Origin: Candidatus Nanoarchaeia archaeon
GTDB lineage: Archaea > Nanobdellota > Nanobdellia > Woesearchaeales > JANQNC01
Length of the DNA: 64,000 nt
Direction of reading: 5' to 3'
Assembly: GCA_028279745.1 (NCBI GenBank)
Contig: JANQNC010000001.1
Span: forward strand, 594,154-658,153
Shown: one piece after another, positions 2,163 to 43,178 of the stretch
Layout: the number at the start of each line of letters is the position of its first letter
Position numbering within the stretch: position 1 is the first letter of the stretch
Position numbers and translations under genes: made by a program
Notes under the pieces: generated by a model
Seen by the model: the letters and a program-made list of their open reading frames with translations, nothing else
What the model was told of the DNA's origin: nothing
Databases searched by the model: none

Positions 2163-2244
2163 GATACCCCTCCTCTTTTTTAGCCATCACTCTAAGGACT
2201 TCTGTATTTAAATGTTTGGATAATGAGAATTTATAAAAAAAAGA

Positions 2245-2356: not shown

Positions 2357-2378
2357 ATTATTGAGGAATAATAAATCC

Positions 2379-16600: not shown

Positions 16601-16895
16601 TGAAAAAGCTGGTTACTCCTTTAAGGTCAACAGAAACTTCTTCATCTTCAGACTTAGTTTCAACTTTATGTTCTGGTTTTTGTTCTTTGTGCTTTTTAGA
16701 TTTTCCTTTGAAAATTTTCTTGAAATCTATAGTGATCTCTTCCTCATCAGAATCAACTTTTTTATCTTCTTTATGCTTTTCGCTAGCTTCAGAATGCTTT
16801 TTATGCTCTTCAGTACTCAATGTATGACACCCCCAATATTTAGCTAAAATATCGACACTGCATTTATAAAGGTTATGATTGGCATATATAAACAA
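13626..16895 (-). CDS. aglB: archaeal oligosaccharyltransferase AglB (STT3) with C-terminal parvulin (PpiC) PPIase domain
   Basis: It has a polytopic TM domain, a DPYLWY motif in the first external loop, and the catalytic WWDFGHW motif (WWDYG family) at about 14974-14987. The last roughly 95 aa read HILINL...[43 protein letters not shown], a clear parvulin signature. The N-terminal 100 aa are Lys/Glu-rich. The ORF opens on a TTG. Confidence 0.85.
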
Positions 16896-29555: not shown

Positions 29556-29556
29556 A

Positions 29557-29688
29557 TTATACTCCCAAAATCTCATTAACTGCAAATTCGATAGCGTGAG
29601 ATTTATTTCTAAATACTCCTTTGCTGACTTGCTCTTTAATTCTAAAAAGGGTTTCAGTATCTATTGAAACGCATATTTTTTCCTTCAT
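29557..29688 (-). CDS. ribbon-helix-helix (CopG/Arc-like) small transcription factor, 43 aa, not in ORF track
   Basis: Manual translation gives MKEKICVSIDTETLFRIKEQVSKGVFRNKSHAIEFAVNEILGV. This shows the beta-strand (ICVSID), helix, helix pattern of RHH repressors. A TATA box TATATTTAAA lies 25-30 nt upstream. The gene is 1 nt upstream of the secreted-protein gene. Confidence 0.5.
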   Translation of the reverse strand: MKEKICVSIDTETLFRIKEQVSKGVFRNKSHAIEFAVNEILGV

Positions 29689-29813: not shown

Positions 29814-30049
29814 ACCTATTATGTAGGTATTTTTACTTACAATTTGAGTTATTTTACTTACTAATTAAGTATATTTACTTATTTTGTAGGTTTTTTACCT
29901 ACTTAGTAGGTTTAATTACTTACATAGTAGGACAAATACTTACATGGTAAGTCTTTTTTACTTACATAGTAAGTACAATAGAAAGTTTTATAAAGGATTA
30001 AACTTACAATGTAAGTTATTATAAATAAATAACAACTTACATAGTGAGT
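29814..30049. promoter_or_regulatory. array of seven 15-bp palindromes ACYTAC-N3-GTARGT plus TTTTACTTAC half-site direct repeats (candidate operator array)
   Basis: Palindrome copies lie at 29814-29828, 29897-29911, 29918-29932, 29938-29952, 29960-29974, 30002-30016 and 30035-30049. Half-sites TTTTACTTAC lie at 29831-29840 and 29853-29862. The last two palindromes flank the TATA-like TTATAAATAAAT at 30018-30029, just upstream of the ATG at 30058. Confidence 0.55.
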
Positions 30050-30057
30050 ATTAAAAC

Positions 30058-30276
30058 ATGATGGATGAGTATGGGAACGAAATAGAGACTTCTAAAATAT
30101 TTATACCTATCTCGATCTTCGAAGATAGAAGACTTTCTGCATTAGAATCAATCGTTGAATATCTCAAAGAAAAAAGACATCTAACACTACACCAAATTGG
30201 AGTCATGCTCAACAGAGATGACAGAACAATCTGGACAACATACAACAGAGCAAAACAGAAGAGGAAGAAAAGATGA
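30058..30276 (+). CDS. small HTH DNA-binding protein (sigma-70 region 4/LuxR-like helix)
   Basis: The 72-aa product carries LTLHQIGVMLNRDDRTIWTTYNRAKQKRKK, which resembles L..EIA..LG.S..TV..R..RA. It overlaps the next gene by 4 nt. Confidence 0.5.
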   Translation: MMDEYGNEIETSKIFIPISIFEDRRLSALESIVEYLKEKRHLTLHQIGVMLNRDDRTIWTTYNRAKQKRKKR

Positions 30277-32669
30277 AACATCACATAAATAACGCAGTCG
30301 CACTAATGTCGGTCATCCTAATACTTACAAGTTCAGTCTTAGTATACAATAGTGCAGAAAACATGCTAACAGGCTATTCAATCTATGATCCTGATGCAGA
30401 AATCTGCCACCAAAATATTGATTCATGTATTGACTTAGATGGAGATGGAATGGTCGGATCCGGAAGTAATGACGAAACAATATTCTCCTGTTTAATTGAT
30501 GAAAATGGACTGGGTTGTCCTGCAAACGATGCTGAATGGATTACTTTATTTGGAAACAGCAAAGAAAACTTCACAATACTAGCAGACTTTGACAATGATG
30601 GAGGAGTTAGCCAGTTAATAGACTTCCAAAGATGTTACGTGACAATGAGAGACAGAGCGATAGATGAAGGCACTTCCTATAATGTAACATGTAACCTACC
30701 ACAAGACGCAGTTAATGATGAAGTCTGCAGGTTTGGATGTCCAGACCTAAACGGAGATGGATTTGTAGACAAGTATGACTTAGCAATCTTAACCTCAGAC
30801 TCAGTATGGAAAAATGATAGTTTCAACCAAACATATCCTATGGCAGACATGACAAATGATTCTGTTGTAGATTGGGCAGATAGAAACTGTATGAGCCTGT
30901 ACTCAAATGAGTATGCACTATGCAACTTACCAAGACACTTCGAACATGAAAATGTGTATGTGTGTCCTGACTTAGAAAATATTACAACAGACTTAGACAA
31001 TGATGGATTTGTAGGAGTGAATGATAAAGCGTTGTTTGACTCTTACTTCGATGATGGTTTGTCAGTTGTTGACTTCACAGGAGAAGGAGACATCAACTGG
31101 AAAGACAGATGGGTCTTTGATGAATATTACAACTACAAAGCAGGAAGCGAATTCAATCAAAGCGTATTGAAAGTTGTAGGATGTAATTTGTACCATGCAG
31201 CATGGCACACAGGAGGGTTGGATCAGAACATTTCATGGGGGTTCACAGGAAGTGGAGGAATGCCGCAATCGATAAACTTCACCGTATTCGACAGTCCTGC
31301 AGATAATTTCGACTCGATGGGCACAACATATGGATGGCTAACAAAAGCAAGAATAAGAATAGAAGGAAACCCTGCAAATACCAAACCAATAAATGTAACG
31401 CTAATAGAACCTTCAACAGGCAAGACATTAGCAAGAACAGAAATACCTCCATTCGGAGATACAAGATGGGCTACAGCATACTTTGCATTACCACCTTACA
31501 CAAATCCAAGACTAACCAATGGAAGTAATTACACTTTGGTCCTTGATAGTCCTGTAACTGAGTTCTATGAAATACAAGGAGGACACAACTTCCAGACCTG
31601 GATGACAACAGCACATGGAGACTTGAATGGAGATGGAATAGTTGATAGTTTAGATGATCTAATCATATCTGCAATAAACGATAATCTGCAGTTTAATGGG
31701 ACAAGTAACTGGAGTTCAGATTACGATCTTAATAACGATTCAATAATAGACAATCTAGATCTGCAAATATTTGTTGATGCTGTTGGAAGCCCACCAATAT
31801 CTTCACAATCAACAATAAGTGTAGGAAGCTATTCACAAACTTTGCTGAATGGAGGAGGAATAATTCCAAACGGAGGCTTTAGTACATCTAACGGCACGGG
31901 TTGGCCACACAAATGGGTGGATAACCAACCAGATGTGGATGTTCCAACTGACATAAGTGTTGTTTCAGGAGAACTAAACATAACTGTAAACAATAACACA
32001 GGCAGTTTTACAGGTGTAAGAAGTAAAAAACTAAAACTAAAACCAAACACAAAATACAACGTAACTGCAAAAATAAAAATCCCAACCTCGATAACACAAT
32101 TAGATGGAACTTGGGAGCTACACCGACATGCACACAATGGGTTCTGTTCAGGAACGCCCGCTTGTCACGATTACACCTTATTAGGCGGGGACTACAGCTG
32201 GGATAATAGTACTTCTAGAGGGGTATGGCACGACAAATGGTGGACAATTGAAACCGGCGAGAATGTCAAAATAGGCTATGTGTTTGTTATAACAGATGTA
32301 AATGGTGGAAACGGAACAATACTTGTTGATGATGTAAGCCTCCACGAAGTTCCAGGATACGAATGGTTCGGCGGAGCTATAAAACTAAGACAGAAGTTTA
32401 CAGCAAACACAGACTCACCAATAAAAGTTGTTCAGCTAAATCTTGCGATGGATAAAGGAAATGATGATGACATCACTGTCAAGATCCTAGATGAAACGTT
32501 CACCCCAGTAGGAAGCACAGTAATACCTGCACTACACAACAGTACACCAACAATCTACAACGCAACGTTCACTCCTGCAGTTGCAGTTACACAAGACCTA
32601 GATTATTACATTGAAGTAAGTTCGCCAGGAGAATATACAGATTACAGATGGTTCGCAAACTATGACTAA
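30273..32669 (+). CDS. surface protein with four dockerin-like Ca-binding repeat pairs and a CBM4_9-like carbohydrate-binding module
   Basis: It has a signal/anchor peptide. Paired loops occur at DLNGDGFVDKYD/DMTNDSVVDWAD, DLDNDGFVGVND/DFTGEGDINWKD and DLNGDGIVDSLDD/DYDLNNDSIIDNLD. The sequence NGGFSTSNGTGWPHKW...KPNTKYNVTAKIK matches the CBM4_9 pattern. Confidence 0.6.
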   Translation: MKHHINNAVALMSVILILTSSVLVYNSAENMLTGYSIYDPDAEICHQNIDSCIDLDGDGMVGSGSNDETIFSCLIDENGLGCPANDAEWITLFGNSKENFTILADFDNDGGVSQLIDFQRCYVTMRDRAIDEGTSYNVTCNLPQDAVNDEVCRFGCPDLNGDGFVDKYDLAILTSDSVWKNDSFNQTYPMADMTNDSVVDWADRNCMSLYSNEYALCNLPRHFEHENVYVCPDLENITTDLDNDGFVGVNDKALFDSYFDDGLSVVDFTGEGDINWKDRWVFDEYYNYKAGSEFNQSVLKVVGCNLYHAAWHTGGLDQNISWGFTGSGGMPQSINFTVFDSPADNFDSMGTTYGWLTKARIRIEGNPANTKPINVTLIEPSTGKTLARTEIPPFGDTRWATAYFALPPYTNPRLTNGSNYTLVLDSPVTEFYEIQGGHNFQTWMTTAHGDLNGDGIVDSLDDLIISAINDNLQFNGTSNWSSDYDLNNDSIIDNLDLQIFVDAVGSPPISSQSTISVGSYSQTLLNGGGIIPNGGFSTSNGTGWPHKWVDNQPDVDVPTDISVVSGELNITVNNNTGSFTGVRSKKLKLKPNTKYNVTAKIKIPTSITQLDGTWELHRHAHNGFCSGTPACHDYTLLGGDYSWDNSTSRGVWHDKWWTIETGENVKIGYVFVITDVNGGNGTILVDDVSLHEVPGYEWFGGAIKLRQKFTANTDSPIKVVQLNLAMDKGNDDDITVKILDETFTPVGSTVIPALHNSTPTIYNATFTPAVAVTQDLDYYIEVSSPGEYTDYRWFANYD

Positions 32670-35600
32670 AAAAACACAAAATAAAAACATGTTGATGCTT
32701 TTGATAGTTGCAACACTATTTGCAATAACCTCTGTAGATGCTGTCCTAAACTGTACTTCGACAGATCCTTGTGAAATTCCTTTTACAGGCGGACACCCAC
32801 CAGGATTCCCCGCGCCACTAGAAAATTTACAATGTGGAGAGACGTTCTATTATGAATTTGAACTTCCAAGAAACCATAACTGCCAAGCCACAGTAATATT
32901 TGATGTGACTGATGGAGCAAACACCTCAAATAAAATAACATTCGGAGGCGATGATTTATTACAGAACTGTCAGAGAGTAATAACTTCAGCAGACTCACAA
33001 CAATGTGAAAACGTAAACATAAATGTGCCCATGGGAATAGATGAACTATTCACAGTAACTGCAAGCAGACCTGTAGAAGGGACTGAATGTAATAGCAGTG
33101 TAGAGATAGATTACACCTTAGCATATTATGCAACCTGCGCAACTACAAAAGACGGGTGGGGAAAGAATGGAAGTTTTGTAAACACAACTGGTGGAGAATT
33201 TTATTTTGAAACACTAATAGGTGAGGGTGGTAACTTCTCAGGACTGTCTATCTTTGATGTTAACAGCGATAATGTAATAAATGATACAGACTACTATGAC
33301 ATACTTTCAAGAGATGGTGAGCGAGACGGAACATTCTGGACCCCACTTATAGACTTTAACGCACAGTTTGGGGTATATGAAGTACTGCTTGATTATACGC
33401 TGGGATTCAGAGCATACTTAGGAAAAATAGTAAATGGAGCGATGCCAATAAGGTGGTTTATAACACAGGAAAATGATGGACGATGCTCATACGATGAAGA
33501 TAACACAAGCACAGACTGCCACTATTGTAACAACGATGGGTTCTGCGCAATAAACGAATATGAATACTTAGGAGAATCATGCCAAGACTGTAACGGGACA
33601 TTCCCACTAGAACCACAGATGACAGAGTTTGATTCTTGTAGCGAAACAACAGACATGGCAGACGTATTAGATATAGAACACGCAGAAAACTTCACAATAG
33701 AAGGAGAAGAACCAGGATGTAATGACGGAAACATCATGTTCACTCAAGAAATTAATCTAACAAATTCAGGATCAGGATACATACCATTAGACATTAACAC
33801 TTCAATAGACATAATTGACAATTACATAAGCGTAAATACAATAGAAGCACCACAGTTAGAGAAAGAAGCACAGCTGACAATCTACAACAGAACATGGTGC
33901 CACCCAGGAATATTAAAGAATGGTGCAGAATGTGTTGATTGTCCAGTACAAGAGTATGGAGATAAAATAAAATCATTAAACGCAACAGGAATAGCTGATG
34001 CAGACTTACTAACTAATGTAACAGGGCAAAGCTTTACACTAGAACTACAAGCAGAAAACTACACATTTGGGAAATTAACACAAAATAATGTTTACACACA
34101 GCAACAAGTCGGACAGGATAGCCCAATAAGTGTTGAGATAGTATCGGGGGCATTAACAACCAACGCAAGAATAAATATAACAGGAATAAACAAAATAATC
34201 TACCTGCCAAAGATGAACTTGGGAGGAGGACCATCTAAAGTTTATGTTGCAGAAGATGGAAGCACTTACACAGGTGCGGCACTTACAACAATATCAAAAT
34301 CTGCAGCAGATCCAATAAAAGTAACTTCACTTAGTGCAGTGAACACTTCAGGACCTCATGGAAAATCATTCTTCTGGTTCTATGCAGGAGAAACACCTAC
34401 ACTATTCGCAACAATAAATAATGATGGGATCTTCAATGCGACAGGCACAACAACAGTTCCAACACAGGTAAAAATTGTGTATACTGCAGAGTATCCTGTT
34501 AATATCACTCTAGACGGACACCATCTATTCCTACCTTCAACATTCCCCATATCTAATGCTGCATATCCTGCAACAAACAACATAACATACAAAGAAAGAG
34601 ATTTAGTGAATGTTAAAAGAACTCCTGAAAAAGATCTAAGCATAGTAGATAAAGATCCAACTAACTTAACATTTACAGTTCCAGCATTCGGATCAGAACT
34701 AATAACAGTATACGAATCAGAAGACCTAGTCCCAAGCTACAGTAACTTCAACGGAAGCACAACAAACTTCTGTTATGCAAAAGATGAAACGACAACACGA
34801 GAACTATCAATATTTAGAGCAGTCATTGAAGATACATCAAATGCAAAACTAGGATTAGTAAGTTATGCAAACTTTACAAAACTAGACCTTAATAATGAAA
34901 TCATCATGGGTGGAAGCAACAAGACAAAAATAATCTGGATAAACGGAAGCACAAGCGATGAGTTTGAAGGAAAAGCTGCAATAATAACATTCCACAGAAT
35001 GGATATAGTGCACCCACAAATAATGGGAACTGTAACAAATGTAGTTCCAATAAGACATTACGTGCCTCCAGGAGAAACACTATCAGAATTCATATTCTAT
35101 GCGGAACTAACTGGTAGTTCACCAATAAACATAACAATAGTAGACGCAGATAATCCAACAGAATTCCTAAGTGATATAGATAATATCACAATAAGAAATG
35201 GAACACAAGAAGTAAGAATTAATGTAAGTGATCACTTCAGTGATGACGATGTTAATGTGACTGACTTAGAGTATGGGGTTGCGAACCAAACAGGAAGCAT
35301 CAAAGTAACATTTGAGAAAGCAGCAAACGTAGTGACAGCAATAATAAGACCATTAACAAGGTTCTTCAATCCGTTCAGTTTCCAGTTCTTCGTTTATGAA
35401 CCTGGAGTAATTGATGGAGAGTCTGCATTCTCTAATTTCCTATTTGGAAACATACTGCCAGACAGACCACCAATACAAACACAAACAATACTAGACATAG
35501 TGTTCAATGAAGATGAAAACGGAACAATAGACTTATCTGACTACTTCGAAGATCCTGACAACCATCCATTACATTATACTTGGACACCGATAGATGCTGG

Positions 35601-38600
35601 CGGAAATATAACAATACACAAACAAGGAATGGCACAAAGCTTATGGTGGAACATAACTAATGCAACTTACACAGGGAATAACAGCATGACATTCCTACAA
35701 GAAGTTATTGCATTAGTTCAAACAAATACAACCGAACTACTTGCATCTCCAGGAACTTACGGATACATAGTGGCAGCAGGTTATGCAGACCAGACAGCTG
35801 AAGAAGGAACAGACCTACTTAGAATAAACTTCTGGAACACAACAGGAAATGGAATGTCATTCCCAGAAGGAAACATAAGCATAACATATGACAACGGAAA
35901 AGATCTGAAGATATACATACCTGAAGTTACCTATACTGATAGGAATAACTTCTCACTATTCGTATCAAAAGACGGATCAACATACTATGATGAAGGACTA
36001 ACACAGATTGCAAAAGTCTCACCTAACCCTATAGTTGTTCCTAGCTTAGTAATAGAACCAGATAGTGATTGGCACGGCAAGAGAACAATAGTCTTCATAG
36101 CAAACGACACAATACACAAGAAAACAAGCAACAACGTAGACATAATTGTTCATAACCTAAACGATGCACCAAGGAAACACAAAGACATTGATGATATAGT
36201 AATGCTAGAGGGAACTGTTGAGTTTGTTGTAAATGTAACACCCGACTACTTATTCGATATAGACATACCTACAGACACCGAGTTTGAAGCAGATGATGAA
36301 CTAACATTAACATATTCAAAACAGGGCGGCGGTGATGCTGAGTTTATCAACTTAACATTCAGCAATAACGGAGTTTATAGCGTTACAGAAGATAAACCAG
36401 TTAATATAACAGTTAAAGCACTGGATTTCCCATACTGGAACGGGTATGAAGCACTAACAGTAAAAGCAACAGACTCATACGGTAAGAGTGTTGAGACAAA
36501 CTTCACAGTATACATAATAGAAGTACCAACAGATCTTAACAGAACAATACTTCCAGCATACATCCCAATGGTTGAAGATGAAACTTATCCATTTGAACTG
36601 AACAACAACTGGTTTGTGGATGTGGAAGGAGATGCAACCTACAGATACTTCGGATTAAATTCAACAAACATAACAATAGAACTGAATATCGATAGTGGAA
36701 ATGGAACAATCAGAGCAGATCCAGACTGGTTTGGTGTAGCTGTAGTTAATTTCTCAGCATCAGACGCGACAAGCAACGTATCAGATATGTTTGTGATAAA
36801 TGTAACACCAGTAAATGACGCGCCAAGATTATATGGAGACATAGAAGTAAAACCATGGCCAAAAGATGAAAGTTATCTGGTTAATTTATCAGACCACTTC
36901 TACGAAGCATACGGAGAAGACACAAACAGTCTAGTGTTCTCAGACATAGACATAATACCAACACTAAGCACAACCTATCATGAACTAATCGCAAACAGCT
37001 ATACTAGTGAGACTGCAAACATGACCCCTGACACAGGATGGTACGGATCAGGATGGATAACCTTCTGCGCAGACGATGGTCAGTATCAGACGTGCAGCAA
37101 CATAGTAAGACTAAACATAACATCTGACAAACCGCCACAGTTAATATCACCATTCAATAGTCCGGAAATATGGCCAGAAGATAATGTTAACTACATCAAC
37201 CTAGAAGAACACTTCTGGGATGAAGAATTAGGAAGTGAGTTAGATTTCACACCATCACTAATAGGACCATTTGATGGATTCAACATAACACCATACGGGG
37301 AGTTGATTAACAGTAATGTATTACTTAACTTAAGCAACGTAAGAAAAGCAGCATACAACTTAACACTGGGAGGAGGATTCACATTCATAGCAGCAGACAA
37401 CAGTGGAAGATACTTAACAACCGCATATGGAACAAACGGAACACAGACACCAATCTTCCTATTAAGCCCACTACAACACAATGCAAAACCAATCAAGATA
37501 TACAAGACAAGCATGAAAGATCCAAGCTTTGAACTACCTGAAGAGACTTATAATTTAACAGGAAACGCAAACATTAGTGTAAGTTACACAGCTTATGAAG
37601 GAGATAAGTCAAGGAGAGTAGAAAGAAACATCGGAACAGGAATAACAGGAATAACAACAATAGATCCTATACCTGTAGTCAGTAACCAACAGTACACAGT
37701 ATCAGCAGTAATAACAACAGAGAACATAAGAGATCCTGGTGAGTCTGTAACAGTGGCAATAGAATGTGATGGCATAGCAACTGAAGTAGCAATACCAGGA
37801 ATGACAACACAAAAACAAGGACTGACAGATTGGGAGGATTGGGACACAATACAAAGAGTATACAACGTAGGATCAAGCACAGAATGTAGACCAAAATTAA
37901 TAATGGGATCTGGAACACTAGGTACTTTCTGGGCAGATCTATTCAACTTCGATAAGTACTACCCTACCAACACACCTGAAAGAGAGATGTCAATAACAGA
38001 ATCAAGCTTAGAATCAGCAACAGGAGGAGTAGAAGTATTCTTACCTGAACTAAACAACACACTACAAGCAATATACTTAGGAATAGACGGAACAACATAC
38101 TATGATGAAAACATGACAGTAGTTGCAAGAAGATCACCAAACATGGCATTAGTGCCAGACGAACACTGGTACGGCAACAGAACAATGGCAATAATTGCAA
38201 CAGACGGAATGTTTAACAGAACATCAAACAATATAAAATTAAGAATAGAACCAGTAAATGACATTCCAATATTCAAAGGACCAATCCAAAACATACCAAT
38301 GAATGAATCTGAAAGCAGAGCTGTAATACTAAGTAACTACTTCGAGGATGTTGAAGACAAAGTAGATCTAGATTACACACTTATCACAAACACAGAACCA
38401 GGAAACATATTTGTTACCATAAATAAAACTGAAAACGAAACAAACGCAACAATAACGACTGCACCAGGATGGGTTGGGTTTGGAGAACTACAATTTAAAG
38501 CAACAGACTCAAAAGGAGCGTCCAACGAGAGCAATGTGTTCATAGTATATGTTGGCGAGTATTCAGACAAAGTATTCGCAATACCTGGAGCAAATACAAC

Positions 38601-41600
38601 ATACTTCCTGGTAGAAGACCAAGGACCAAAACAGTTCCCAGTCAAAAACAAATACTTCAATGACACAGATGATGATGCAGTTTATTGGTACACAATAGAT
38701 GAAACCAAGTTTAATATGACTGCATGGGACGAAGACGCAGGATTCGGATTCATCAAACCATTACCAGACTATTGTAACTTTGTAAGCTGCACAAACACAA
38801 ACGGATATGACAATATAACATTACATGCACAAGACCCAATATCTGGAATAGTAAACACAACAGTGCAAATGGTTGTGGAATGTGTACCGGACATACCAAG
38901 AATAGAAGACGACATATACATAACCTTCCCAGAAGATACAAACTATTACACACTAATCGAATATGGATATGACCCGGATAAGATATGGGGTTGTGATAAT
39001 GTAACTGTAGAGTATCCAAGCTACGCAAATGTAAGAGTGAATCTATCAACATTCGATGGATTCAACATGAGCTTCCAGCCAGAACCTAACTTCAACGGAA
39101 TAGAGATAATCAATGTTACATTAACAGATGCTTATGGACTACAGAATTCAACAATCGTAACAATAAACGTTACACCAATAGATGATCCAACACAACTTAA
39201 CTGGACACCTTATGGATATACAATACCTGAAGATACTAACTTAACAGAAAACGTAAGCGACAAGATATGGGATGTTGATAACGTATTAACATTAAATGCT
39301 ACATACGATCCGTCAGTAATTGCATCAATAATATTTGAGCCGACCATGACCGTAGTCCCACTGATACAGAATTTCCTACAACAGATGATAGTGACACCAG
39401 TAATGGATTGGTTTGGCTTAACATTCTTCGATGTATATGCTACAAACGAATCAGGAGATGTTGTTGCAAATGTTTCATTGTATCTAAATGTAACACCAGT
39501 CAACGATGCACCAGTATGTGACGAGCAGATTGCAGATCAGGTAATGTGCGAAGATACCTTGCTTGACATACTGATAAATGGAAACATAATAGATGTAGAT
39601 AATGAAACATTAAATTACTTTGCACAAAATTTGACTGCAGGAATTGATAATGTGACATTCTTCAACGGGTGGAGAGATGAAGAAACATTATCAGAAAACA
39701 TACACTCCGTTACAGAATTTAATGATGTGCTTTATGCAGTAGGAGATGATGGATACATTGCAAGATACTATGATAAAGGTAATTGCACTGCAGAGTATGG
39801 ATGGGAGCAGGTAGAAAATACCTCAACTGCCAATGATTTACGAGCGGTCCATGGATACAACGGAATGTTGTTCACAGCAGGAGACAATGGAGAAGTTGAT
39901 GTGTATAATGGAACATGGAACAATGTAAGTAAATTTACAAGTTTAGATCTTCACGCACTGGAAACATACGATAATAAGCTATGGGTTGGAGGAGATGAAG
40001 GAGAGATATGGACATATAATGGAAACAACTGGACCAATATGACTAACTTATTCATCAACAGCCACGTAAGACATCTGAAAGCATTTGACGAAATACTGTA
40101 TGTGGGACAGTCATCAGGAACACACGGAGAAAAAATAGATTATTACAACACGAGCGAATGGAGAAACATAGTTAATGAACCATTAAACGGAAGCATAAAG
40201 GCAATGGAAGAATATGACGGAAAACTATTCGTTTCAGATGATAATGGAAGTATCGCGCACTTAGTTGAAGAAACATGGACATACCTAACAGGAACAAATG
40301 TCAATGACATAGAAAGTATGACTGTCTTTGATGGAATGTTATATACCGGTGGCGCTAGTGGAGAGATCGATAGATTTGATGGCACAGTATGGGAAAACGT
40401 GACAGGAACAACAACAGGGTTCACAACAGAGATGATACCATATAAACACTCCAAATATAACAATAATAGAGATTACCTATTCACATTCTCAAACGGAGAT
40501 GTAGATTCATATACAGGAGGATTCACAGCAGTAATCAATAGTTCAGACAACTGGTTTGGAAATGCAAATGCAACAATAGGCGCGACAGATGGTGAAATGA
40601 ACGGAACATGCGACCCAATCAATATAGAAGTGACACCAGTTGAAGATAATCCAACATTTGTCTCAATGTGGCCATGGATCAACACAGTAAGCATACTGAC
40701 AGAATCATATGATGTTGATAACTTGTACTCATACCTACAGAACTTAACATTAGATGTGTATAATGCAACCATCGAGAACAATGGAAGCTTATTATGTAGT
40801 GGTGTAAATGTTGAAAATGTAAGTTGTGAGTTCCCACAACCTGAAGATAACATGACACACACCGTGTTCGGATACTTATACGACAGCAACGGAAATGAGG
40901 CAGATAACAATCCACTAAATGCAAGCTATGAGTTTAATCCACCTACTGTTAACACAAATGCAGATGAAAGATTCTGGTTCATAGGGGATAATGGAACAAT
41001 CACAATAGGAACAACAGATGATACCGGATTATTGAATATTCAGTACTGCGTAGCAGATTATTATGAAGATGACTGCACAATAAATGAAACTGTTGCAGCG
41101 AGTGGAACTGTGAACTCACTAATACTAAGTGTAGAATGTGCACCTACAGATATAATGTGCAGAACAAAAGTCAAGTTCACAGCACAAGACATCTTCGGAA
41201 ACTATGCAGAAGAAGGAAGTGGAAGAGTCAACATGATATATGGCTCAGAAATCTATAATACCACCGTCAATGAAACAAGAAACGGAGAAAAAGTAGTTGT
41301 GTTAAATGGATCAGTAGTAAACAACTCAAACATAATCAGAAGTCTAGTAAGAAACGTAACATACAACGAAGTGACAATAATAGACAGTGAAGACAAGAAT
41401 AGTGTAACAAGTAATGCTATGATCTTTGTTGATCCATCAATACTAGAAAATAACACATACATAGGACCTAACACTTTGATCAATGCAATAATCAAACACA
41501 GCACAATAGAAGATAGCGATGTAAGAGACTCAGAAGGATGCCACATGATAATAAATGAAAGCACCATAATAAATGGAGCGATAATAAATGGAACTGTGAC

Positions 41601-42660
41601 CTGGAACGGAACAGTCTATAGTGCAGGTGAGCTAACAATAAAAGATGAAAATACAAATTGTGTATTCGATCAGTTCGAGCAAATACAAACACCACCTTCC
41701 GGAGGCGGAGGCGGCGGCGGAAGCTGCACACCTAACTGGGAATGCACAGAGTGGACAGAATGCGGATATTATAGCGGCATAAGGACAAGGACTTGCATAG
41801 ACACAAGAAATTGCAACAGAGACAGACCTGTAGAAAGAGAAACTTGCAGAGGAATACCTGCATGCTCAGACGGATTATGGAACAATGGAGAAGAAGGAGT
41901 AGATTGCGGAGGCAAATGCACGCCTTGTTCAGGTGAAGAAGAAATAACCGGCAGACCAATCATAGAAAGACCTGTAACTCCAATTGAAGAACAACCAGAC
42001 ACAATAGAGCCTCCAGTAGAGGAAGAAACAAAAGTTCCTTGGTGGTTCTTACTACTATTACTATTGTTCATAGTTGCAGTAATAGGATTCATTGCAGCAG
42101 ACATGAGAAAGAGACAAACAGTAATCCCAACAGTTAAAGAATCAGTTACACCAGTAGCAGTAGCTGAAAAACCAAAACAAGGAGTGTTGATGGTTGAGGT
42201 AGAAGAGTTAGAAAAATCAATACAGTCAGTGTTAGGCAGCGGATTTACTGTAGAAGATGTCAAACAAGCACTAATGAGAAAAGGATGGGACGAACAAACA
42301 GTTAACTTTGCATTGAAAGAAGCAGTTATCAAGAAGTATAAACTGCATGAACCTCACGGTGAATTAGAGAAATTAGAAAAATCAATATCATCCGTAGTTG
42401 GACACGGATATACTTGCCAAGACATCAGGAAGTCATTAGTCAAGAAAGGCTGGCCAAGAGATGTGGTAGATGAGGCATTACATGAAACAGTAGTAAGAAA
42501 TGAGAAACTACATGAAGTACATAATGATGTTGAACAACTGGTTAACTCTATCAAAGCAGTAAGGTGTCATGGATATGCTAAGGACGCAATCAAGAAAAAG
42601 CTATTAGATAAAGGATGGCCTCTTGCTAAAGTGAATGAAGCTATGAAAAAAGTTCCTTAA
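32662..42660 (+). CDS. giant (3332 aa) type-I membrane surface protein: cadherin-like repeats, 7-bladed beta-propeller, Cys-rich module, TM helix, cytoplasmic triple repeat
   Basis: A single uninterrupted ORF with signal peptide MTKKTQNKNMLMLLIVATLFAITSVDA. It has recurrent VTPVNDAP, NDIPIF and VEDNPTF motifs (cadherin-like DxNDNAPxF). It has blades of the form hL(Y/F)xxGDxGEIxxYNGTxW (about 39.7-40.5 kb). A Cys-rich module lies at about 41.70-41.94 kb. A TM helix WWFLLLLLLFIVAVIGFIAA lies at about 42.04-42.10 kb. N-x-S/T sequons are extremely frequent. Confidence 0.8.
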   Translation: MTKKTQNKNMLMLLIVATLFAITSVDAVLNCTSTDPCEIPFTGGHPPGFPAPLENLQCGETFYYEFELPRNHNCQATVIFDVTDGANTSNKITFGGDDLLQNCQRVITSADSQQCENVNINVPMGIDELFTVTASRPVEGTECNSSVEIDYTLAYYATCATTKDGWGKNGSFVNTTGGEFYFETLIGEGGNFSGLSIFDVNSDNVINDTDYYDILSRDGERDGTFWTPLIDFNAQFGVYEVLLDYTLGFRAYLGKIVNGAMPIRWFITQENDGRCSYDEDNTSTDCHYCNNDGFCAINEYEYLGESCQDCNGTFPLEPQMTEFDSCSETTDMADVLDIEHAENFTIEGEEPGCNDGNIMFTQEINLTNSGSGYIPLDINTSIDIIDNYISVNTIEAPQLEKEAQLTIYNRTWCHPGILKNGAECVDCPVQEYGDKIKSLNATGIADADLLTNVTGQSFTLELQAENYTFGKLTQNNVYTQQQVGQDSPISVEIVSGALTTNARINITGINKIIYLPKMNLGGGPSKVYVAEDGSTYTGAALTTISKSAADPIKVTSLSAVNTSGPHGKSFFWFYAGETPTLFATINNDGIFNATGTTTVPTQVKIVYTAEYPVNITLDGHHLFLPSTFPISNAAYPATNNITYKERDLVNVKRTPEKDLSIVDKDPTNLTFTVPAFGSELITVYESEDLVPSYSNFNGSTTNFCYAKDETTTRELSIFRAVIEDTSNAKLGLVSYANFTKLDLNNEIIMGGSNKTKIIWINGSTSDEFEGKAAIITFHRMDIVHPQIMGTVTNVVPIRHYVPPGETLSEFIFYAELTGSSPINITIVDADNPTEFLSDIDNITIRNGTQEVRINVSDHFSDDDVNVTDLEYGVANQTGSIKVTFEKAANVVTAIIRPLTRFFNPFSFQFFVYEPGVIDGESAFSNFLFGNILPDRPPIQTQTILDIVFNEDENGTIDLSDYFEDPDNHPLHYTWTPIDAGGNITIHKQGMAQSLWWNITNATYTGNNSMTFLQEVIALVQTNTTELLASPGTYGYIVAAGYADQTAEEGTDLLRINFWNTTGNGMSFPEGNISITYDNGKDLKIYIPEVTYTDRNNFSLFVSKDGSTYYDEGLTQIAKVSPNPIVVPSLVIEPDSDWHGKRTIVFIANDTIHKKTSNNVDIIVHNLNDAPRKHKDIDDIVMLEGTVEFVVNVTPDYLFDIDIPTDTEFEADDELTLTYSKQGGGDAEFINLTFSNNGVYSVTEDKPVNITVKALDFPYWNGYEALTVKATDSYGKSVETNFTVYIIEVPTDLNRTILPAYIPMVEDETYPFELNNNWFVDVEGDATYRYFGLNSTNITIELNIDSGNGTIRADPDWFGVAVVNFSASDATSNVSDMFVINVTPVNDAPRLYGDIEVKPWPKDESYLVNLSDHFYEAYGEDTNSLVFSDIDIIPTLSTTYHELIANSYTSETANMTPDTGWYGSGWITFCADDGQYQTCSNIVRLNITSDKPPQLISPFNSPEIWPEDNVNYINLEEHFWDEELGSELDFTPSLIGPFDGFNITPYGELINSNVLLNLSNVRKAAYNLTLGGGFTFIAADNSGRYLTTAYGTNGTQTPIFLLSPLQHNAKPIKIYKTSMKDPSFELPEETYNLTGNANISVSYTAYEGDKSRRVERNIGTGITGITTIDPIPVVSNQQYTVSAVITTENIRDPGESVTVAIECDGIATEVAIPGMTTQKQGLTDWEDWDTIQRVYNVGSSTECRPKLIMGSGTLGTFWADLFNFDKYYPTNTPEREMSITESSLESATGGVEVFLPELNNTLQAIYLGIDGTTYYDENMTVVARRSPNMALVPDEHWYGNRTMAIIATDGMFNRTSNNIKLRIEPVNDIPIFKGPIQNIPMNESESRAVILSNYFEDVEDKVDLDYTLITNTEPGNIFVTINKTENETNATITTAPGWVGFGELQFKATDSKGASNESNVFIVYVGEYSDKVFAIPGANTTYFLVEDQGPKQFPVKNKYFNDTDDDAVYWYTIDETKFNMTAWDEDAGFGFIKPLPDYCNFVSCTNTNGYDNITLHAQDPISGIVNTTVQMVVECVPDIPRIEDDIYITFPEDTNYYTLIEYGYDPDKIWGCDNVTVEYPSYANVRVNLSTFDGFNMSFQPEPNFNGIEIINVTLTDAYGLQNSTIVTINVTPIDDPTQLNWTPYGYTIPEDTNLTENVSDKIWDVDNVLTLNATYDPSVIASIIFEPTMTVVPLIQNFLQQMIVTPVMDWFGLTFFDVYATNESGDVVANVSLYLNVTPVNDAPVCDEQIADQVMCEDTLLDILINGNIIDVDNETLNYFAQNLTAGIDNVTFFNGWRDEETLSENIHSVTEFNDVLYAVGDDGYIARYYDKGNCTAEYGWEQVENTSTANDLRAVHGYNGMLFTAGDNGEVDVYNGTWNNVSKFTSLDLHALETYDNKLWVGGDEGEIWTYNGNNWTNMTNLFINSHVRHLKAFDEILYVGQSSGTHGEKIDYYNTSEWRNIVNEPLNGSIKAMEEYDGKLFVSDDNGSIAHLVEETWTYLTGTNVNDIESMTVFDGMLYTGGASGEIDRFDGTVWENVTGTTTGFTTEMIPYKHSKYNNNRDYLFTFSNGDVDSYTGGFTAVINSSDNWFGNANATIGATDGEMNGTCDPINIEVTPVEDNPTFVSMWPWINTVSILTESYDVDNLYSYLQNLTLDVYNATIENNGSLLCSGVNVENVSCEFPQPEDNMTHTVFGYLYDSNGNEADNNPLNASYEFNPPTVNTNADERFWFIGDNGTITIGTTDDTGLLNIQYCVADYYEDDCTINETVAASGTVNSLILSVECAPTDIMCRTKVKFTAQDIFGNYAEEGSGRVNMIYGSEIYNTTVNETRNGEKVVVLNGSVVNNSNIIRSLVRNVTYNEVTIIDSEDKNSVTSNAMIFVDPSILENNTYIGPNTLINAIIKHSTIEDSDVRDSEGCHMIINESTIINGAIINGTVTWNGTVYSAGELTIKDENTNCVFDQFEQIQTPPSGGGGGGGSCTPNWECTEWTECGYYSGIRTRTCIDTRNCNRDRPVERETCRGIPACSDGLWNNGEEGVDCGGKCTPCSGEEEITGRPIIERPVTPIEEQPDTIEPPVEEETKVPWWFLLLLLLFIVAVIGFIAADMRKRQTVIPTVKESVTPVAVAEKPKQGVLMVEVEELEKSIQSVLGSGFTVEDVKQALMRKGWDEQTVNFALKEAVIKKYKLHEPHGELEKLEKSISSVVGHGYTCQDIRKSLVKKGWPRDVVDEALHETVVRNEKLHEVHNDVEQLVNSIKAVRCHGYAKDAIKKKLLDKGWPLAKVNEAMKKVP

Positions 42661-42668
42661 GTCAAAAA

Positions 42669-43178
42669 ATGGAAGACATACACAATAAATGGCCCCACAG
42701 ATGGGTAAATTCAAAAGCAGCATCTGAAAACTCTAAACTGCATGGTCTTGGGGTATTCGCTAAAGAAGAAATAAAAAAAGGAGAACTAATCTGCATTCTT
42801 GGAGGAGTTATAGTTCCCAGTTCTGAAATTAAAGAATACTGGGGCAAGATGAGTCATGTGGGGATACAGATCCACGAGGACTTTTTTATGGTTCCCACAA
42901 CAAGAGAAGAGTTAGAACAAAACGGTGTATTTAACCATTCTTGTGAACCAAATATCGGCTTCTTGGAGGATATCCAGTTTGTAGCAATAAAAGATATACA
43001 ACCTGGAGAAGAGTTGGTTTTTGATTACGCATTTAGCGAAACTTTAATGGACCCTTTTGAATGTAAATGCGAGTCTGACAAATGTAGGAAAACAATAACT
43101 TCTAACGACTGGAAAATCAAAGAAATACAAACAAAATATAAAAAATACTTCTCTCCTTATTTAAGAAGAAAAATTTAA
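42669..43178 (+). CDS. SET-domain protein (lysine methyltransferase)
   Basis: It carries GLGVFAKEEIKKGELI, NHSCEPN, GEELVFDY and a post-SET Cys cluster CKCESDKC. It lies 9 nt downstream of the giant gene. Confidence 0.8.
   Translation: MEDIHNKWPHRWVNSKAASENSKLHGLGVFAKEEIKKGELICILGGVIVPSSEIKEYWGKMSHVGIQIHEDFFMVPTTREELEQNGVFNHSCEPNIGFLEDIQFVAIKDIQPGEELVFDYAFSETLMDPFECKCESDKCRKTITSNDWKIKEIQTKYKKYFSPYLRRKI

What the first reader, a model, noticed from the sequence alone, without database searches (positions are those of the whole stretch)
30058..43178. Candidate undescribed surface-adhesion system: HTH regulator, dockerin/CBM protein, 3332-aa giant adhesin and a trailing SET-domain gene
Three genes overlap by 4 and 8 nt and are therefore translationally coupled. 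The first is a 72-aa HTH protein. The second is a 798-aa secreted protein with four dockerin-like modules and a carbohydrate-binding module. The third is a 3332-aa type-I membrane protein with cadherin-like repeats, a propeller, a Cys-rich module and UBA-like cytoplasmic repeats. The operon sits behind a heavily gated promoter and is followed 9 nt later by a SET-domain methyltransferase. Dockerins imply a cohesin-bearing partner, possibly within the giant protein. The CBM implies glycan recognition. For a reduced-genome, probably host-dependent archaeon this is a plausible host-cell attachment and recognition apparatus.
Basis: partly seen in the sequence, partly recalled or inferred. Interest (0 to 1): 0.8.

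Follow-up and report, generated by a model that had tools for sequence, protein, structure and literature searches.

The report
Self-regulated giant surface-protein operon, DPANN archaeon
A small-genome archaeon carries a conserved three-gene operon for a tiny DNA-binding regulator, a calcium-binding dockerin-like surface protein and a 3332-residue membrane-anchored fibre, sitting behind ten copies of one palindrome; the same regulator-plus-palindrome pair accompanies giant surface-protein genes across Woesearchaeota/Nanoarchaeota.

Summary
Four same-strand ORFs lie at 30058-43178, with 4- and 8-nt overlaps and an 8-nt spacer before the SET gene.

- **Trio:** the HTH, dockerin-like and giant genes recur together, with the same overlaps and promoter layout, in all three related metagenomic loci found.
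- **SET gene:** it is absent from all three loci, so it is not part of the unit.
- **Dockerins:** the modules are real but weak (Pfam 23.1 bits against a 22.9 cut-off; eight conserved Ca-loop motifs).
- **Cohesin and CBM:** no cohesin was detected in the four operon proteins, and the CBM call is inconclusive.

The strongest result concerns the regulator. The 72-aa protein has a sigma-70 region-4/LuxR-type fold. Relatives were found in 222 loci of a one-genome-per-species collection; the 80 examined are labelled DPANN-type or unclassified/mislabelled archaeal MAGs. Its presumed operator, ACTTAC-N3-GTAAGT, is about 154-fold enriched just upstream of these genes. In 50 of the 80 loci the gene abuts an ORF of at least 1000 aa.

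Most likely this is an autoregulated operon for a glycosylated, fast-evolving adhesin-like surface fibre with an accessory subunit. Host attachment is inferred, not shown. Novelty: a new variant of a known kind.

The parts
29814..30049 (.). Array of ten 15-bp palindromes, ACTTAC-N3-GTAAGT and variants. They start at 29814, 29835, 29856, 29877, 29897, 29918, 29938, 29960, 30002 and 30035. Eight lie upstream of the TATA box, phased at 20-22 bp. One lies just downstream of the TATA box. One lies just before the start codon. These are the presumed operators of the 72-aa HTH.
   Evidence: Nine sites match with at most 1 mismatch, against 0.45 expected and none elsewhere in the window. The spacing pattern recurs in L001 (identical apart from 43 instead of 42 bp across the TATA box), L089 and, for its proximal part, L002.
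29981..29996 (+). Putative archaeal BRE/TATA element GAAAGTTTTATAAAGG. The transcription start is inferred about 25 nt downstream, within or next to the 30002-30016 palindrome.
   Evidence: the element is conserved as ATAGAAAG(A/T)TTTATAAA in the window, L089, L001, L002 and L003. Its position was located. The promoter function and TSS are inferred, not measured.
30058..30276 (+). 72-aa stand-alone HTH protein with a sigma-70 region-4/LuxR-type fold. It is the first cistron and the presumed autoregulator.
30273..32669 (+). 798-aa dockerin-like surface protein. Its start overlaps the HTH stop by 4 nt (ATGA). It has an N-terminal hydrophobic signal/anchor at aa 8-25.
30432..31121 (+). Dockerin-like modules 1-3 (aa 54-122, 158-208, 240-283). 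Each is a pair of EF-hand-like Ca-loop plus helix segments.
   Evidence: The loop residues are invariant in three orthologues. The PDB hits are dockerins.
31185..31613 (+). Beta-sandwich A (aa 305-447), judged DUF4082-like from its sequence pattern.
   Evidence: One search shows conservation. predicts beta strands at moderate confidence. The resemblance to module B is by eye only and was not significant in BLAST.
31620..31778 (+). Dockerin-like module 4 (aa 450-502), the most canonical of the four.
   Evidence: best PDB dockerin hits 2y3n_B and 5lxv_B..
31845..32357 (+). It has a CBM4_9-like sequence pattern only.
   Evidence: CBM_4_9_1 E=0.079, below the cut-off; absent in L002 and divergent in L001; pLDDT below 50.
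32361..32666 (+). C-terminal beta-sandwich B (aa 697-798), DUF4082-like jelly roll.
   Evidence: DUF4082 20.4 bits, below the cut-off; orthologue P0002 carries PF13313; pLDDT roughly 70-90; only generic jelly-roll matches.
32662..42660 (+). 3332-aa type-I membrane protein, the giant adhesin-like fibre. Its start overlaps the stop of the previous gene by 8 nt.
32740..35199 (+). Non-repetitive, Cys-containing N-terminal 'head' (aa 27-846), the part furthest from the membrane. It holds the most conserved stretch of the protein (aa ~222-318) and one EF-hand-like loop at aa 199-210.
   Evidence: invariant columns; loop; the most conserved peptides chosen lie here. One search found no Pfam hits.
35200..40665 (+). 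About 13 cadherin-like/tandem-95 repeat units (aa 847-2668), with (L/V)ND(A/I)P linker motifs.
   Evidence: NF012211 86 bits against a 90-bit cut-off, six stretches; a self-built HMM finds 13 unit matches; linker motifs.
37354..38031 (+). Domain nested inside a repeat unit (aa ~1565-1790). It has a CBM4_9-like pattern only and is unverified.
   Evidence: the repeat unit is split at 1564/1790; no Pfam hit; no similarity to the 798-aa protein's variable region.
39679..40521 (+). Seven-bladed beta-propeller-like insert (aa ~2340-2620). It is absent from the L001 orthologue.
   Evidence: One search found five blade motifs by pattern and two more were read by eye; only sub-threshold WD40-like/DUF6242 hits; window residues 2175-2630 have no counterpart in L001.
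40666..41691 (+). Asn/Ser/Thr-rich region (aa 2669-3010), beta-helix-like by pattern. A Gly7 linker follows.
   Evidence: sequence; weak similarity to a Nanoarchaeota parallel beta-helix protein, P0056; no Pfam hit.
41725..41919 (+). Cys-rich module (aa 3022-3086): CxxxWxCxxWxxC followed by CxDGxxNxxExGxDCGGxCxxC.
   Evidence: (Cys/Trp invariant in the orthologues).
42040..42102 (+). Single transmembrane helix (aa 3127-3146), followed by RKR on the inside.
   Evidence: There are no sequons beyond it.
42199..42657 (+). Cytoplasmic tail of three ~53-aa three-helix repeats (HG[FY]T..D[IV]K..L..KGW), RecX_HTH1/UBA-like.
42669..43178 (+). SET plus post-SET lysine-methyltransferase gene. It is probably co-transcribed here but is not a conserved member of the unit.
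   Evidence: Absent from L001, L002 and L089.

Best explanation
This is a vertically inherited, autoregulated operon of a DPANN-type archaeon. It builds a glycosylated cell-surface structure.

**Shown**
- Three overlapping cistrons are conserved as a unit.
- The first encodes a 72-aa protein with a sigma region-4/LuxR-type HTH fold.
- Its gene sits behind a conserved array of ACTTAC-N3-GTAAGT palindromes that bracket a conserved TATA element.
- The other two cistrons encode proteins with secretion/anchor signals and a large excess of N-glycosylation sequons.

**Inferred mechanism**
- The HTH binds the palindromes as a dimer.
- The best sites flank the TATA box and cover the likely transcription start, so occupancy blocks TBP/TFB/RNA polymerase. 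This gives negative feedback on a very costly 12.6-kb transcript.
- The eight upstream sites, phased at two helical turns, allow cooperative all-or-none switching.
- Translational coupling ties the output of the regulator, the accessory protein and the fibre together.
- The 3332-aa protein is anchored by its C-terminal helix. It projects a stalk of about 13 cadherin-like units, with nested propeller and jelly-roll domains, and a conserved N-terminal head.
- The 798-aa protein uses its four Ca-dependent dockerin-like modules to attach to the fibre or the envelope, and presents beta-sandwich domains.
- The structure most likely mediates adhesion to a partner cell or a surface polymer.
- The SET gene is a lineage-specific passenger.
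For: - **Gene structure and overlaps:**
- **Trio, overlaps, RadB/rpS2 synteny and promoter layout conserved in L001, L002 and L089/L090:**
- **HTH fold:** (sigma region 4 of SigR, SigW, SigE, AlgU and others; rmsd about 1 A over 45 residues; 31 of 48 members hit Sigma70_r4_2).
- **Operator specificity in the window:** (9 sites against 0.45 expected, none elsewhere).
- **Operator specificity across genomes:**. In 80 species-representative loci there are 120 sites in 45.5 kb just upstream of the HTH domain, against 19 in 1111 kb elsewhere.
- **Matched conservation:** the recognition helix (RDDRTIWT) is nearly invariant, as is the palindrome.
- **HTH more conserved than housekeeping genes:** 95% identity to L089 against 85-89% for rpS2 and RadA. 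The surface proteins are 35-66% identical.
- **Surface location:** signal/anchor segments, the TM helix, and sequon density of 3.9 per 100 aa in the ectodomain against 0 in the tail and at most about 1.2 in the other window proteins counted. An AglB and glycosyltransferase cluster lies 5-25 kb upstream.
- **Adhesin-type architecture:**
- **Dockerin-like modules:**
- **General link of the HTH family to surface proteins:** 31 of 80 loci have an ORF of at least 1000 aa immediately downstream, 50 of 80 have one adjacent, and 62 of 69 downstream products carry an N-terminal signal or anchor.
Against: - No binding, transcription or localisation data exist. Repression versus activation is inferred only from operator positions.
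- No cohesin or other identified receptor for the dockerin-like modules was found.
- The structure prediction of the 798-aa protein failed (pLDDT 41), and no model of the giant could be made.
- Most of the giant (head, nested insert, beta-helix-like region) has no significant family match.
- Co-occurrence of the trio rests on four syntenic, orthologous loci, so these are not independent events.
- A C-terminally anchored, heavily glycosylated protein could equally be an envelope or S-layer component.
Confidence: 0.6

Rival explanations
1. Envelope or S-layer reading. The giant protein and its partner are structural parts of the cell's own envelope, such as an S-layer or sheath glycoprotein with a Ca-dependent accessory subunit. 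They would not be a host- or ligand-binding adhesin.
For: A signal peptide, a C-terminal membrane anchor, a Pro/Glu-rich stalk and dense N-glycosylation sequons are typical of archaeal S-layer glycoproteins (the comparison rests on general knowledge). An AglB/glycosylation cluster lies nearby. No ligand-binding domain is firmly identified.
Against: - Length and domain content vary strongly between close relatives: 3332, 2954, 2646 and 1606 aa, with the propeller present or absent.
- Divergence is far above that of housekeeping genes. This suits an interaction protein better than a lattice former.
- A ten-operator promoter suggests tight or switchable expression, not constitutive high expression.
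- The cadherin-like tandem architecture is the hallmark of fibrillar adhesins.
Confidence: 0.2
2. Cellulosome-like reading. The dockerin modules of the 798-aa protein plug into cohesin modules, possibly in the giant protein. A CBM then targets glycans.
For: Four dockerin-like modules at the Pfam threshold, with dockerin-only PDB hits. Strict co-occurrence and translational coupling with the giant gene. Jelly-roll-type sandwiches are present. Non-cellulosomal cohesin-dockerin pairs are known in archaea such as Archaeoglobus fulgidus (my own knowledge).
Against: - No Cohesin profile hit appeared in any of the four operon proteins, at E<=1 on the whole proteins or at E<=5 on ten segments of the giant. 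No cohesin appeared among the PDB hits.
- No glycoside hydrolase or other cargo domain was found.
- The CBM hit is sub-threshold, and the region is missing in L002.
- Dockerin-like EF-hand pairs occur widely without known cohesin partners (my own knowledge).
Confidence: 0.15
3. Signalling reading. The HTH is controlled by the giant protein itself. The giant's cytoplasmic domain would sequester the region-4-like HTH at the membrane, as an anti-sigma factor does, and release it when the ectodomain engages a target.
For: - The fold is the very module that anti-sigma factors grip. Many of the top structural hits are sigma-4/anti-sigma complexes.
- Most HTH-linked giants whose relevant terminus was inspected have a cytoplasmic domain. 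It is either an ~80-aa N-terminal coiled coil before the TM segment, or C-terminal 'GW' three-helix repeats.
- L007/L008 encode an 1860-aa membrane protein with two HTH units fused to its C-terminus.
Against: - No anti-sigma domain hit in those cytoplasmic regions.
- The tail repeat family also occurs on a giant with no such HTH or palindromes upstream (L091) and in soluble all-repeat proteins.
- The tail HMM does not hit the other HTH-linked giants significantly.
- There is no interaction evidence.
Confidence: 0.1

Closest known systems
Giant membrane-anchored surface proteins of nanohaloarchaea ('SPEARE' proteins; Hamm et al. 2019, La Cono et al. 2023, PMC10266531)
   Same: A DPANN archaeon with a small genome devotes about 10 kb to one secreted, membrane-bound protein built largely of Ig/cadherin-like tandem domains. 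The protein is proposed to contact the host.
   Different: There is no detectable sequence relationship. No VirB4/TraG-like ATPase domain or downstream secretion ATPase is present. Here the protein is anchored C-terminally with a RecX-like cytoplasmic tail. It is preceded by a dedicated HTH and a dockerin-like partner. It is also much shorter (3332 aa against about 9000).
Bacterial tandem-95 repeat / cadherin-like fibrillar adhesins (NCBIfam NF012211; Pfam Cadherin_4/5, Big_9)
   Same: About 13 units of about 95 aa with ND(A/I)P-type linkers, and nested ligand-binding-type domains such as a propeller and a jelly roll.
   Different: The score is just below the family cut-off (86 against 90 bits). 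The host is archaeal. The topology is type I with a TM helix and a cytoplasmic tail, rather than T1SS/RTX or sortase anchoring. The protein has dense N-glycosylation sequons.
Cohesin-dockerin systems (cellulosomes; non-cellulosomal pairs such as those of Archaeoglobus fulgidus)
   Same: Duplicated 22-residue Ca-loop/helix segments. Pfam Dockerin_1 scores at threshold, and the PDB hits are all dockerins.
   Different: Four modules sit in one non-enzymatic protein. No cohesin and no catalytic cargo were found. Module 1 has an unusually long 51-residue spacing between its two loops.
GerE/LuxR-type stand-alone HTH proteins and sigma-70 region 4 (Pfam Sigma70_r4_2, GerE)
   Same: A protein of about 70 aa made up almost only of the four-helix region-4/LuxR DNA-binding fold. 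Like B. subtilis GerE (74 aa), it is linked to genes for surface-layer proteins (my own knowledge).
   Different: It is archaeal and therefore acts on a TBP/TFB promoter. It has no sigma regions 2/3, so it is not a sigma factor. It has its own conserved 6-3-6 palindrome, arrayed up to ten times.
SigI/RsgI and ECF sigma/anti-sigma surface-sensing pairs
   Same: A region-4-type DNA-binding module is genetically paired with a single-pass membrane protein that carries a large extracellular domain.
   Different: This is an analogy only. No sigma region 2 and no anti-sigma domain were detected. The topology of the window's giant is the reverse of RsgI.
RecX three-helix repeats (Pfam RecX_HTH1-3)
   Same: The giant's tail is three tandem three-helix units, and RecX_HTH1 scores above its cut-off on the isolated tail. 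JGI annotated the orthologue as OraA/RecX.
   Different: The repeats sit at the cytoplasmic end of a surface protein. They belong to a family of 143 cluster representatives, mostly C-terminal tails of proteins of up to 5173 aa. Nothing suggests a RecA/RadA-regulating role.

Membership tests
Cohesin-dockerin (cellulosome-type) system | Dockerin: two tandem ~22-residue segments, each a 12-residue Ca-binding loop followed by a helix | tested here: met
   Pfam Dockerin_1 scores 23.1 bits against a 22.9 cut-off. Eight loops, paired into four modules, have invariant Asp/Asn/Gly positions in three orthologues. 11 of 13 PDB profile hits are dockerins. Support is marginal in score but consistent.
Cohesin-dockerin (cellulosome-type) system | A cohesin module in a partner (scaffoldin or anchor) protein | tested here: not met
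   No Cohesin hit in the four operon proteins (E<=1) or in ten segments of the giant (E<=5). No cohesin appeared in the PDB profile searches. Giant residues 900-1490 and 1830-2170 were covered only by the whole-protein scan. The rest of the genome could not be searched.
Cohesin-dockerin (cellulosome-type) system | Dockerin-borne catalytic or binding cargo (glycoside hydrolase, CBM) | tested here: inconclusive
   No enzyme domain was found. CBM_4_9_1 scores E=0.079 and DUF4082 scores 20.4 bits, both below their cut-offs. The fold search on the poor model returned only generic jelly rolls, including CBM36.
Cohesin-dockerin (cellulosome-type) system | Ca-dependent physical binding of dockerin to cohesin | not testable with these tools
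   This needs a biochemical assay or multimer structure prediction.
Sigma-70 region 4 / LuxR-GerE type HTH | Four-helix region-4 fold with a C-terminal recognition helix | tested here: met
   The AF2 model has pLDDT 87. The top Foldseek PDB hits are sigma region 4 of ECF and primary sigmas, followed by RcsB, with rmsd 0.8-1.2 A over about 45 residues.
Sigma-70 region 4 / LuxR-GerE type HTH | Profile match to Sigma70_r4_2 | tested here: inconclusive
   31 of 48 family members match, with a best E-value of 6.5e-11. The window's own protein shows only HTH_11 at E=0.018.
Sigma factor (functional) | Region 2 (-10 recognition and core binding) in addition to region 4 | tested here: not met
   The protein is 72 aa and consists of region 4 only. 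The organism is an archaeon, with RadA, RadB and an archaeal-type rpS2.
Tandem-95 repeat / cadherin-like adhesins | Multiple ~95-aa units matching NF012211 above the cut-off | tested here: inconclusive
   86 bits against a 90-bit cut-off, six stretches. The Cadherin_4/5 and Big_9 hits are sub-threshold. A self-built HMM finds 13 unit matches.
SPEARE-type giant proteins of nanohaloarchaea | VirB4/TraG-like ATPase domain and an adjacent secretion ATPase gene (as described in PMC10266531) | tested here: not met
   No such Pfam hit in the giant or its neighbours.
ECF sigma/anti-sigma or SigI/RsgI pair | Anti-sigma domain in the cytoplasmic part of the membrane partner | tested here: not met
   The giant's tail matches RecX_HTH1/UBA only. 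The N-terminal cytoplasmic regions of other HTH-linked giants give only coiled-coil noise.
SET-domain lysine methyltransferase (the trailing gene) | SET domain above the cut-off, with a post-SET Cys cluster | tested here: met
   Pfam SET scores 60.1 bits against a 22.4 cut-off. PDB hits to MLL and ASH1L SET domains run to E=8e-11. A CxCxxxxC motif is visible.
Membership of the SET gene in the conserved operon | Presence downstream of the giant gene in related loci | tested here: not met
   Absent in L002 and L089, where the giant gene is followed directly by convergent rpS2. Absent in L001, where a metallo-beta-lactamase-fold gene follows. There is no tblastn hit in these loci.

The most novel reading that the evidence does not exclude
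The small region-4-like HTH and the giant surface protein form a contact-sensing circuit. The giant's cytoplasmic domain (RecX-like tail repeats here, N-terminal coiled coils in other lineages) would hold the HTH at the membrane. It would release it, or be cleaved, when the ectodomain binds a host. Attachment would then rewire transcription through the ACTTAC-N3-GTAAGT operators. This would be an archaeal analogue of anti-sigma signalling, built on a eukaryote-like TBP/TFB promoter.
Probability: 0.1. Interest if true: 0.85.

Novelty: new variant of a known kind. Interest (0 to 1): 0.55.

Why it matters
DPANN archaea are thought to depend on physical contact with hosts. Yet almost nothing is known about how their very large surface proteins are controlled or assembled.

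**A testable regulatory handle.** This locus offers a 72-aa transcription factor with a defined 15-bp palindrome. The factor and its palindrome recur across Woesearchaeota/Nanoarchaeota MAGs, next to giant surface-protein genes. Three uses follow:
- The factor and its site can be studied in vitro without culturing the organism.
- The palindrome can serve as a sequence tag to find surface or attachment operons in metagenomes.
- The ten-site, helically phased array is an unusually elaborate archaeal promoter architecture.

**A candidate assembly principle.** The dockerin-like partner suggests Ca-dependent assembly for such fibres. That could be checked by complex prediction or pull-downs.

**What would not be new.** If the structure proves to be only a glycosylated envelope protein, the regulatory module would still be new. 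The adhesion story would then be ordinary.

Tried and rejected
- **Structure of the 798-aa protein.** AF2 with a 3-sequence alignment failed (pLDDT 41). The fold search on it returned only generic jelly rolls, so neither supports nor refutes a CBM.
- **Structure of the giant.** No model was possible.
- **Cohesin search.** Pfam on whole proteins and segments, and PDB profile searches, found nothing.
- **More trio loci.** Two metagenome scans, with the dockerin-protein and giant alignments, found nothing. The dockerin-protein HMM hit none of the 80 species-representative loci.
- **Source organism.** Exact look-up of the window's own proteins found no gene record and no source names. The organism is known only as an NCBI contig of 1.30 Mb.
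- **Virus or defence origin.** No HTH relatives in IMG/VR. No PHROG or PADLOC hits for any of the four proteins.
- **Anti-sigma idea.** No anti-sigma domain hits. The tail HMM does not significantly match the other HTH-linked giants; L041 and L045 share only the motif. A tail-bearing giant lacks the HTH.
- **Internal homology.** The two CBM-like regions, and the two DUF4082-like sandwiches, show no significant similarity to each other.
- **SET as part of the system.** Rejected on comparative grounds.
- **Literature.** Searches for the HTH-giant module, for DPANN dockerins and for Sigma70_r4 in DPANN found nothing relevant.

Full report
**1. The observation**

The window is archaeal. RadA, RadB and an archaeal-type ribosomal protein S2 flank the region. 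GC content is about 35%.

Four same-strand ORFs occupy 30058-30276 (72 aa), 30273-32669 (798 aa), 32662-42660 (3332 aa) and 42669-43178 (169 aa). I read the junctions directly:
- ATGA gives a 4-nt overlap.
- ATGACTAA gives an 8-nt overlap.
- An 8-nt spacer separates the giant's stop from the SET start.

The 370-nt region upstream of the operon holds ten copies of a 15-bp palindrome, ACTTAC-N3-GTAAGT and close variants, between 29814 and 30049. Nine match with at most one mismatch. Chance expectation is 0.45, and there are none elsewhere in the 64 kb.

**2. The regulator and its operators**

*Fold.* The window's 72-aa protein alone gives only a weak HTH_11 hit. It does, however, belong to a clear family:
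- 48 cluster representatives were found in the protein collection.
- 31 of these match Pfam Sigma70_r4_2.
- An AlphaFold model built on the 48-sequence alignment is confident (pLDDT 87).
- Its best PDB matches are almost all sigma-70 region 4 domains (SigR, SigL, SigH, SigD, SigW, SigE, AlgU), followed by the LuxR-type RcsB. The rmsd is about 1 A over 45 residues.

It is too short to be a sigma factor, and the host is an archaeon. It is thus a stand-alone region-4/LuxR-type DNA binder.

*Conserved promoter layout.* The three closest loci carry the same palindromes in the same order:
- The spacing runs 21-21-21-20-21-20-22 bp, then 42-43 bp across the TATA box, then 33 bp. L001 shows the full pattern. 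L089 and L002 show its proximal part.
- The TATA element, ATAGAAAG(A/T)TTTATAAA, is conserved in all four loci and in the more distant L003.
- In the window, the best-matching sites sit immediately either side of the TATA box. The site just downstream (30002-30016) should cover the transcription start.

*Distribution across genomes.* A scan of one genome per species found 222 loci encoding relatives. The 80 kept are labelled Woesearchaeota, Nanoarchaeota or Nanoarchaeia, unclassified 'archaeon', or 'uncultured Methanosarcinales'. I take the last label to be a depositor's mislabel, but I did not test that.

In those 80 loci the palindrome (at most 1 mismatch) occurs 120 times in the 45.5 kb just upstream of the HTH domain. 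It occurs only 19 times in the remaining 1.11 Mb, an enrichment of about 154-fold.

The recognition helix (RDDRTIWT) is almost invariant across the family, which matches the invariance of the palindrome.

That this protein binds this palindrome and autoregulates its operon is an inference, but a strong one. The sign of regulation rests only on site positions. I favour repression.

**3. The link to giant genes**

| Measure | Count |
|---|---|
| Loci with an ORF of at least 1000 aa immediately downstream of the HTH gene (mostly with the same ATGA overlap) | 31 of 80 |
| Loci with such an ORF within 3.5 kb downstream | 9 of 80 |
| Loci with such an ORF ending at the HTH start | 10 of 80 |
| Total loci with an adjacent ORF of at least 1000 aa | 50 of 80 |
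| Downstream products starting with a signal or anchor segment | 62 of 69 |
| The same, among downstream products of at least 1000 aa | 32 of 32 |

- Several of the remaining 30 loci are cut by contig ends.
- Independent contigs show the same arrangement. These are L003-L005, and L006 with two such pairs.
- One protein in L007/L008 has two HTH units fused to the C-terminus of an 1860-aa membrane protein.

The window's operon is therefore one instance of a widespread module of HTH, palindrome and very large surface protein. I found no description of this module in the searchable literature.

**4. The 798-aa protein**

- It has an N-terminal hydrophobic segment.
- It has eight EF-hand-like loops in four pairs, at aa 54-122, 158-208, 240-283 and 450-502. 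The ligand positions are invariant in three orthologues.
- Pfam Dockerin_1 sits exactly at threshold (23.1 against 22.9 bits).
- A profile search of the PDB returned 13 weak hits, 11 of them dockerins, at three of the four modules.
- Two beta-sandwich regions flank module 4. The C-terminal one is DUF4082-like. It scores below the cut-off here, but the family is recorded on orthologue P0002.
It is absent from the L002 orthologue and divergent in L001.
- The structure prediction was poor (pLDDT 41). The fold search on it gave only generic jelly rolls.

In short, the dockerin-like modules are supported, and the CBM is undecided.

**5. The giant protein**

From N- to C-terminus:
- a signal peptide;
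- a non-repetitive Cys-containing head (aa 27-846), which holds the most conserved stretch of the protein and one EF-hand-like loop;
- about 13 cadherin-like/tandem-95 units (aa 847-2668; NF012211 86 against 90 bits; self-built HMM), with ND(A/I)P linkers;
- two nested inserts, namely a jelly-roll-like domain (~1565-1790, no profile hit) and a seven-bladed propeller-like domain (~2340-2620, sub-threshold WD40-like hits), the latter missing from the L001 orthologue;
- an Asn-rich beta-helix-like region and a Gly7 linker;
- a Cys-rich module, a Pro/Glu stalk and one TM helix;
- a cytoplasmic tail of three three-helix repeats.

The tail repeats match RecX_HTH1 above its cut-off (36 against 26 bits) and UBA just below (22.3 against 22.4). 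The tail family has 143 cluster representatives. Nearly all match at the extreme C-terminus of proteins of up to 5173 aa.

The ectodomain carries 122 N-glycosylation sequons, 2.75 times the number expected from composition. The tail has none, and the other window proteins counted have at most about 1.2 per 100 aa. An AglB-PPIase fusion and a glycosylation cluster lie upstream.

No cohesin signal was found anywhere in the four operon proteins.

**6. Comparative genomics of the trio**

All relatives of the 798-aa and giant proteins that could be found lie in three other loci. These are L001, L002 and L089/L090, from JGI and Logan assemblies. Each has the trio in the same order, with start/stop overlaps (4 and 8 nt in L001), next to RadB. 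Two further metagenome scans found nothing.

These are syntenic orthologues. The co-occurrence is real, but it reflects one vertically inherited unit, not repeated independent association.

Amino-acid identity to the window:

| Protein | L089 | L002 |
|---|---|---|
| HTH | 95% | 75% |
| RadA | 89% | not compared |
| rpS2 | 85% | 67% |
| RadB | 76% | 62% |
| 798-aa protein | 35-66% | 44% |
| Giant protein | 41-50% | 29-35% |

The regulator is more conserved than a ribosomal protein. The two surface proteins evolve fast and change length (3332, 2954, 2646 and 1606 aa).

The SET gene is absent from all three loci. So are the neighbouring 177-aa Cys-rich ORF and the 309-aa ORF. The SET gene is a bona fide SET/post-SET methyltransferase, but it is a window-specific neighbour.

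**7. Explanation and rivals**

*Best explanation (about 0.6).* This is an autoregulated, translationally coupled operon for a glycosylated, membrane-anchored adhesin-like fibre and a Ca-dependent accessory subunit. It is switched by cooperative binding of the HTH to a phased operator array around the TATA box.

*Rivals:*
- a purely structural envelope or S-layer role (about 0.2), weakened by the variability and the repeat architecture;
- a true cohesin-dockerin assembly with glycan targeting (about 0.15), weakened by the absence of any cohesin or solid CBM signal;
- a contact-sensing circuit in which the giant's cytoplasmic domain controls the HTH (about 0.1).

The last rival is suggested by the fold, the fused L007 protein and the cytoplasmic domains seen on most HTH-linked giants inspected. 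It is undercut by the lack of anti-sigma homology and by a tail-bearing giant that has no such HTH upstream.

**8. Comparison and novelty**

Giant membrane-bound surface proteins proposed to mediate host contact are already known in DPANN, in the nanohaloarchaeal 'SPEARE' proteins. The general idea is therefore not new. This protein lacks their defining ATPase.

The new elements are:
- the dockerin-like partner;
- the RecX-like tail;
- above all, the conserved small HTH with its palindrome array, coupled to giant surface-protein genes across a phylum-level group.

I rate this a new variant of a known kind, with interest 0.55. It is solid, testable and useful as a genomic marker. Its adhesive function and its mechanism remain inferred.

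Noticed in passing
window 13626-16895 (-), with 5013-25035: A 1089-aa fusion of oligosaccharyltransferase AglB/STT3 with a C-terminal PPIC-type peptidyl-prolyl isomerase. It sits in a cluster with PMT_2/Alg9-like and GT2 glycosyltransferases, a flippase and an ABC-2 transporter. This may be the glycosylation machinery for the sequon-rich surface proteins.
   Followed up: partly
window 29560-29688 (-): An unlisted 43-aa ORF, MKEKICVSIDTETLFRIKEQVSKGVFRNKSHAIEFAVNEILGV, diverges from the operon promoter. By eye it looks like a ribbon-helix-helix (CopG-type) protein, but it has no Pfam hit. A 309-aa ORF with no hits follows it (28656-29585, -).
   Followed up: partly
window 44373-44906 (-): A 177-aa Cys-rich protein with a signal peptide, a C-terminal TM segment and a Dicty_CTDC repeat hit above the cut-off (30 against 27 bits). 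It is absent from the related loci.
   Followed up: partly
L007 824-6403 and L008 3-2420: An 1860-aa protein with this order of parts: an N-terminal cytoplasmic coiled coil, a TM segment at ~113, a large ectodomain, a short second hydrophobic segment at ~1655, and two C-terminal copies of the same HTH domain. It is a natural fusion of the regulator to a giant membrane protein.
   Followed up: partly
L012, L013, L017, L034, L042, L052, L053, L055, L057, L072: In ten species-representative loci the HTH gene lies immediately downstream of a giant ORF. In the cases read from the coordinates, such as L012, the junction is an ATGA-type overlap. All ten lack upstream palindromes, so the HTH can be an internal cistron of giant-gene operons.
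   Followed up: partly
L091 5698-6000: A tail-bearing 2061-aa beta-helix giant of a Nanoarchaeota MAG has no region-4-type HTH upstream. Instead an uncalled small ORF ends at its start codon (…KLYIRGSSYETTLPLPLLFKLD…). By eye it resembles an AbrB/SpoVT-type DNA binder. Other small regulators may play the same role.
   Followed up: no
N-termini of HTH-linked proteins (e.g. window 30273-30400; L045, L066, L076, L082): A short motif, TG[LFYMAN][AVSFTI][VIALT], follows the N-terminal hydrophobic segment in 36 of 69 proteins encoded downstream of HTH genes. The window's 798-aa protein has it as LTGYSI. It may be a processing or sorting signal. I know of no description of it.
   Followed up: no
P0060, P0063 (representative-library hits): Soluble proteins of about 300 aa made entirely of the same 'KGW' three-helix repeats as the giant's cytoplasmic tail. 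The repeat is therefore a free-standing cytoplasmic module as well as a tail.
   Followed up: no
window 25055-27828 (-): Two adjacent ORFs of 444 and 483 aa have no Pfam hits. They are conserved next to RadB in L002 and L089 at 32-60% identity.
   Followed up: no
window 2242-2358 (-) and 53407-55425 (-): A 5S rRNA gene (69 bits). A 672-aa Peptidase_M23 protein that is also present in L089/L090.
   Followed up: no
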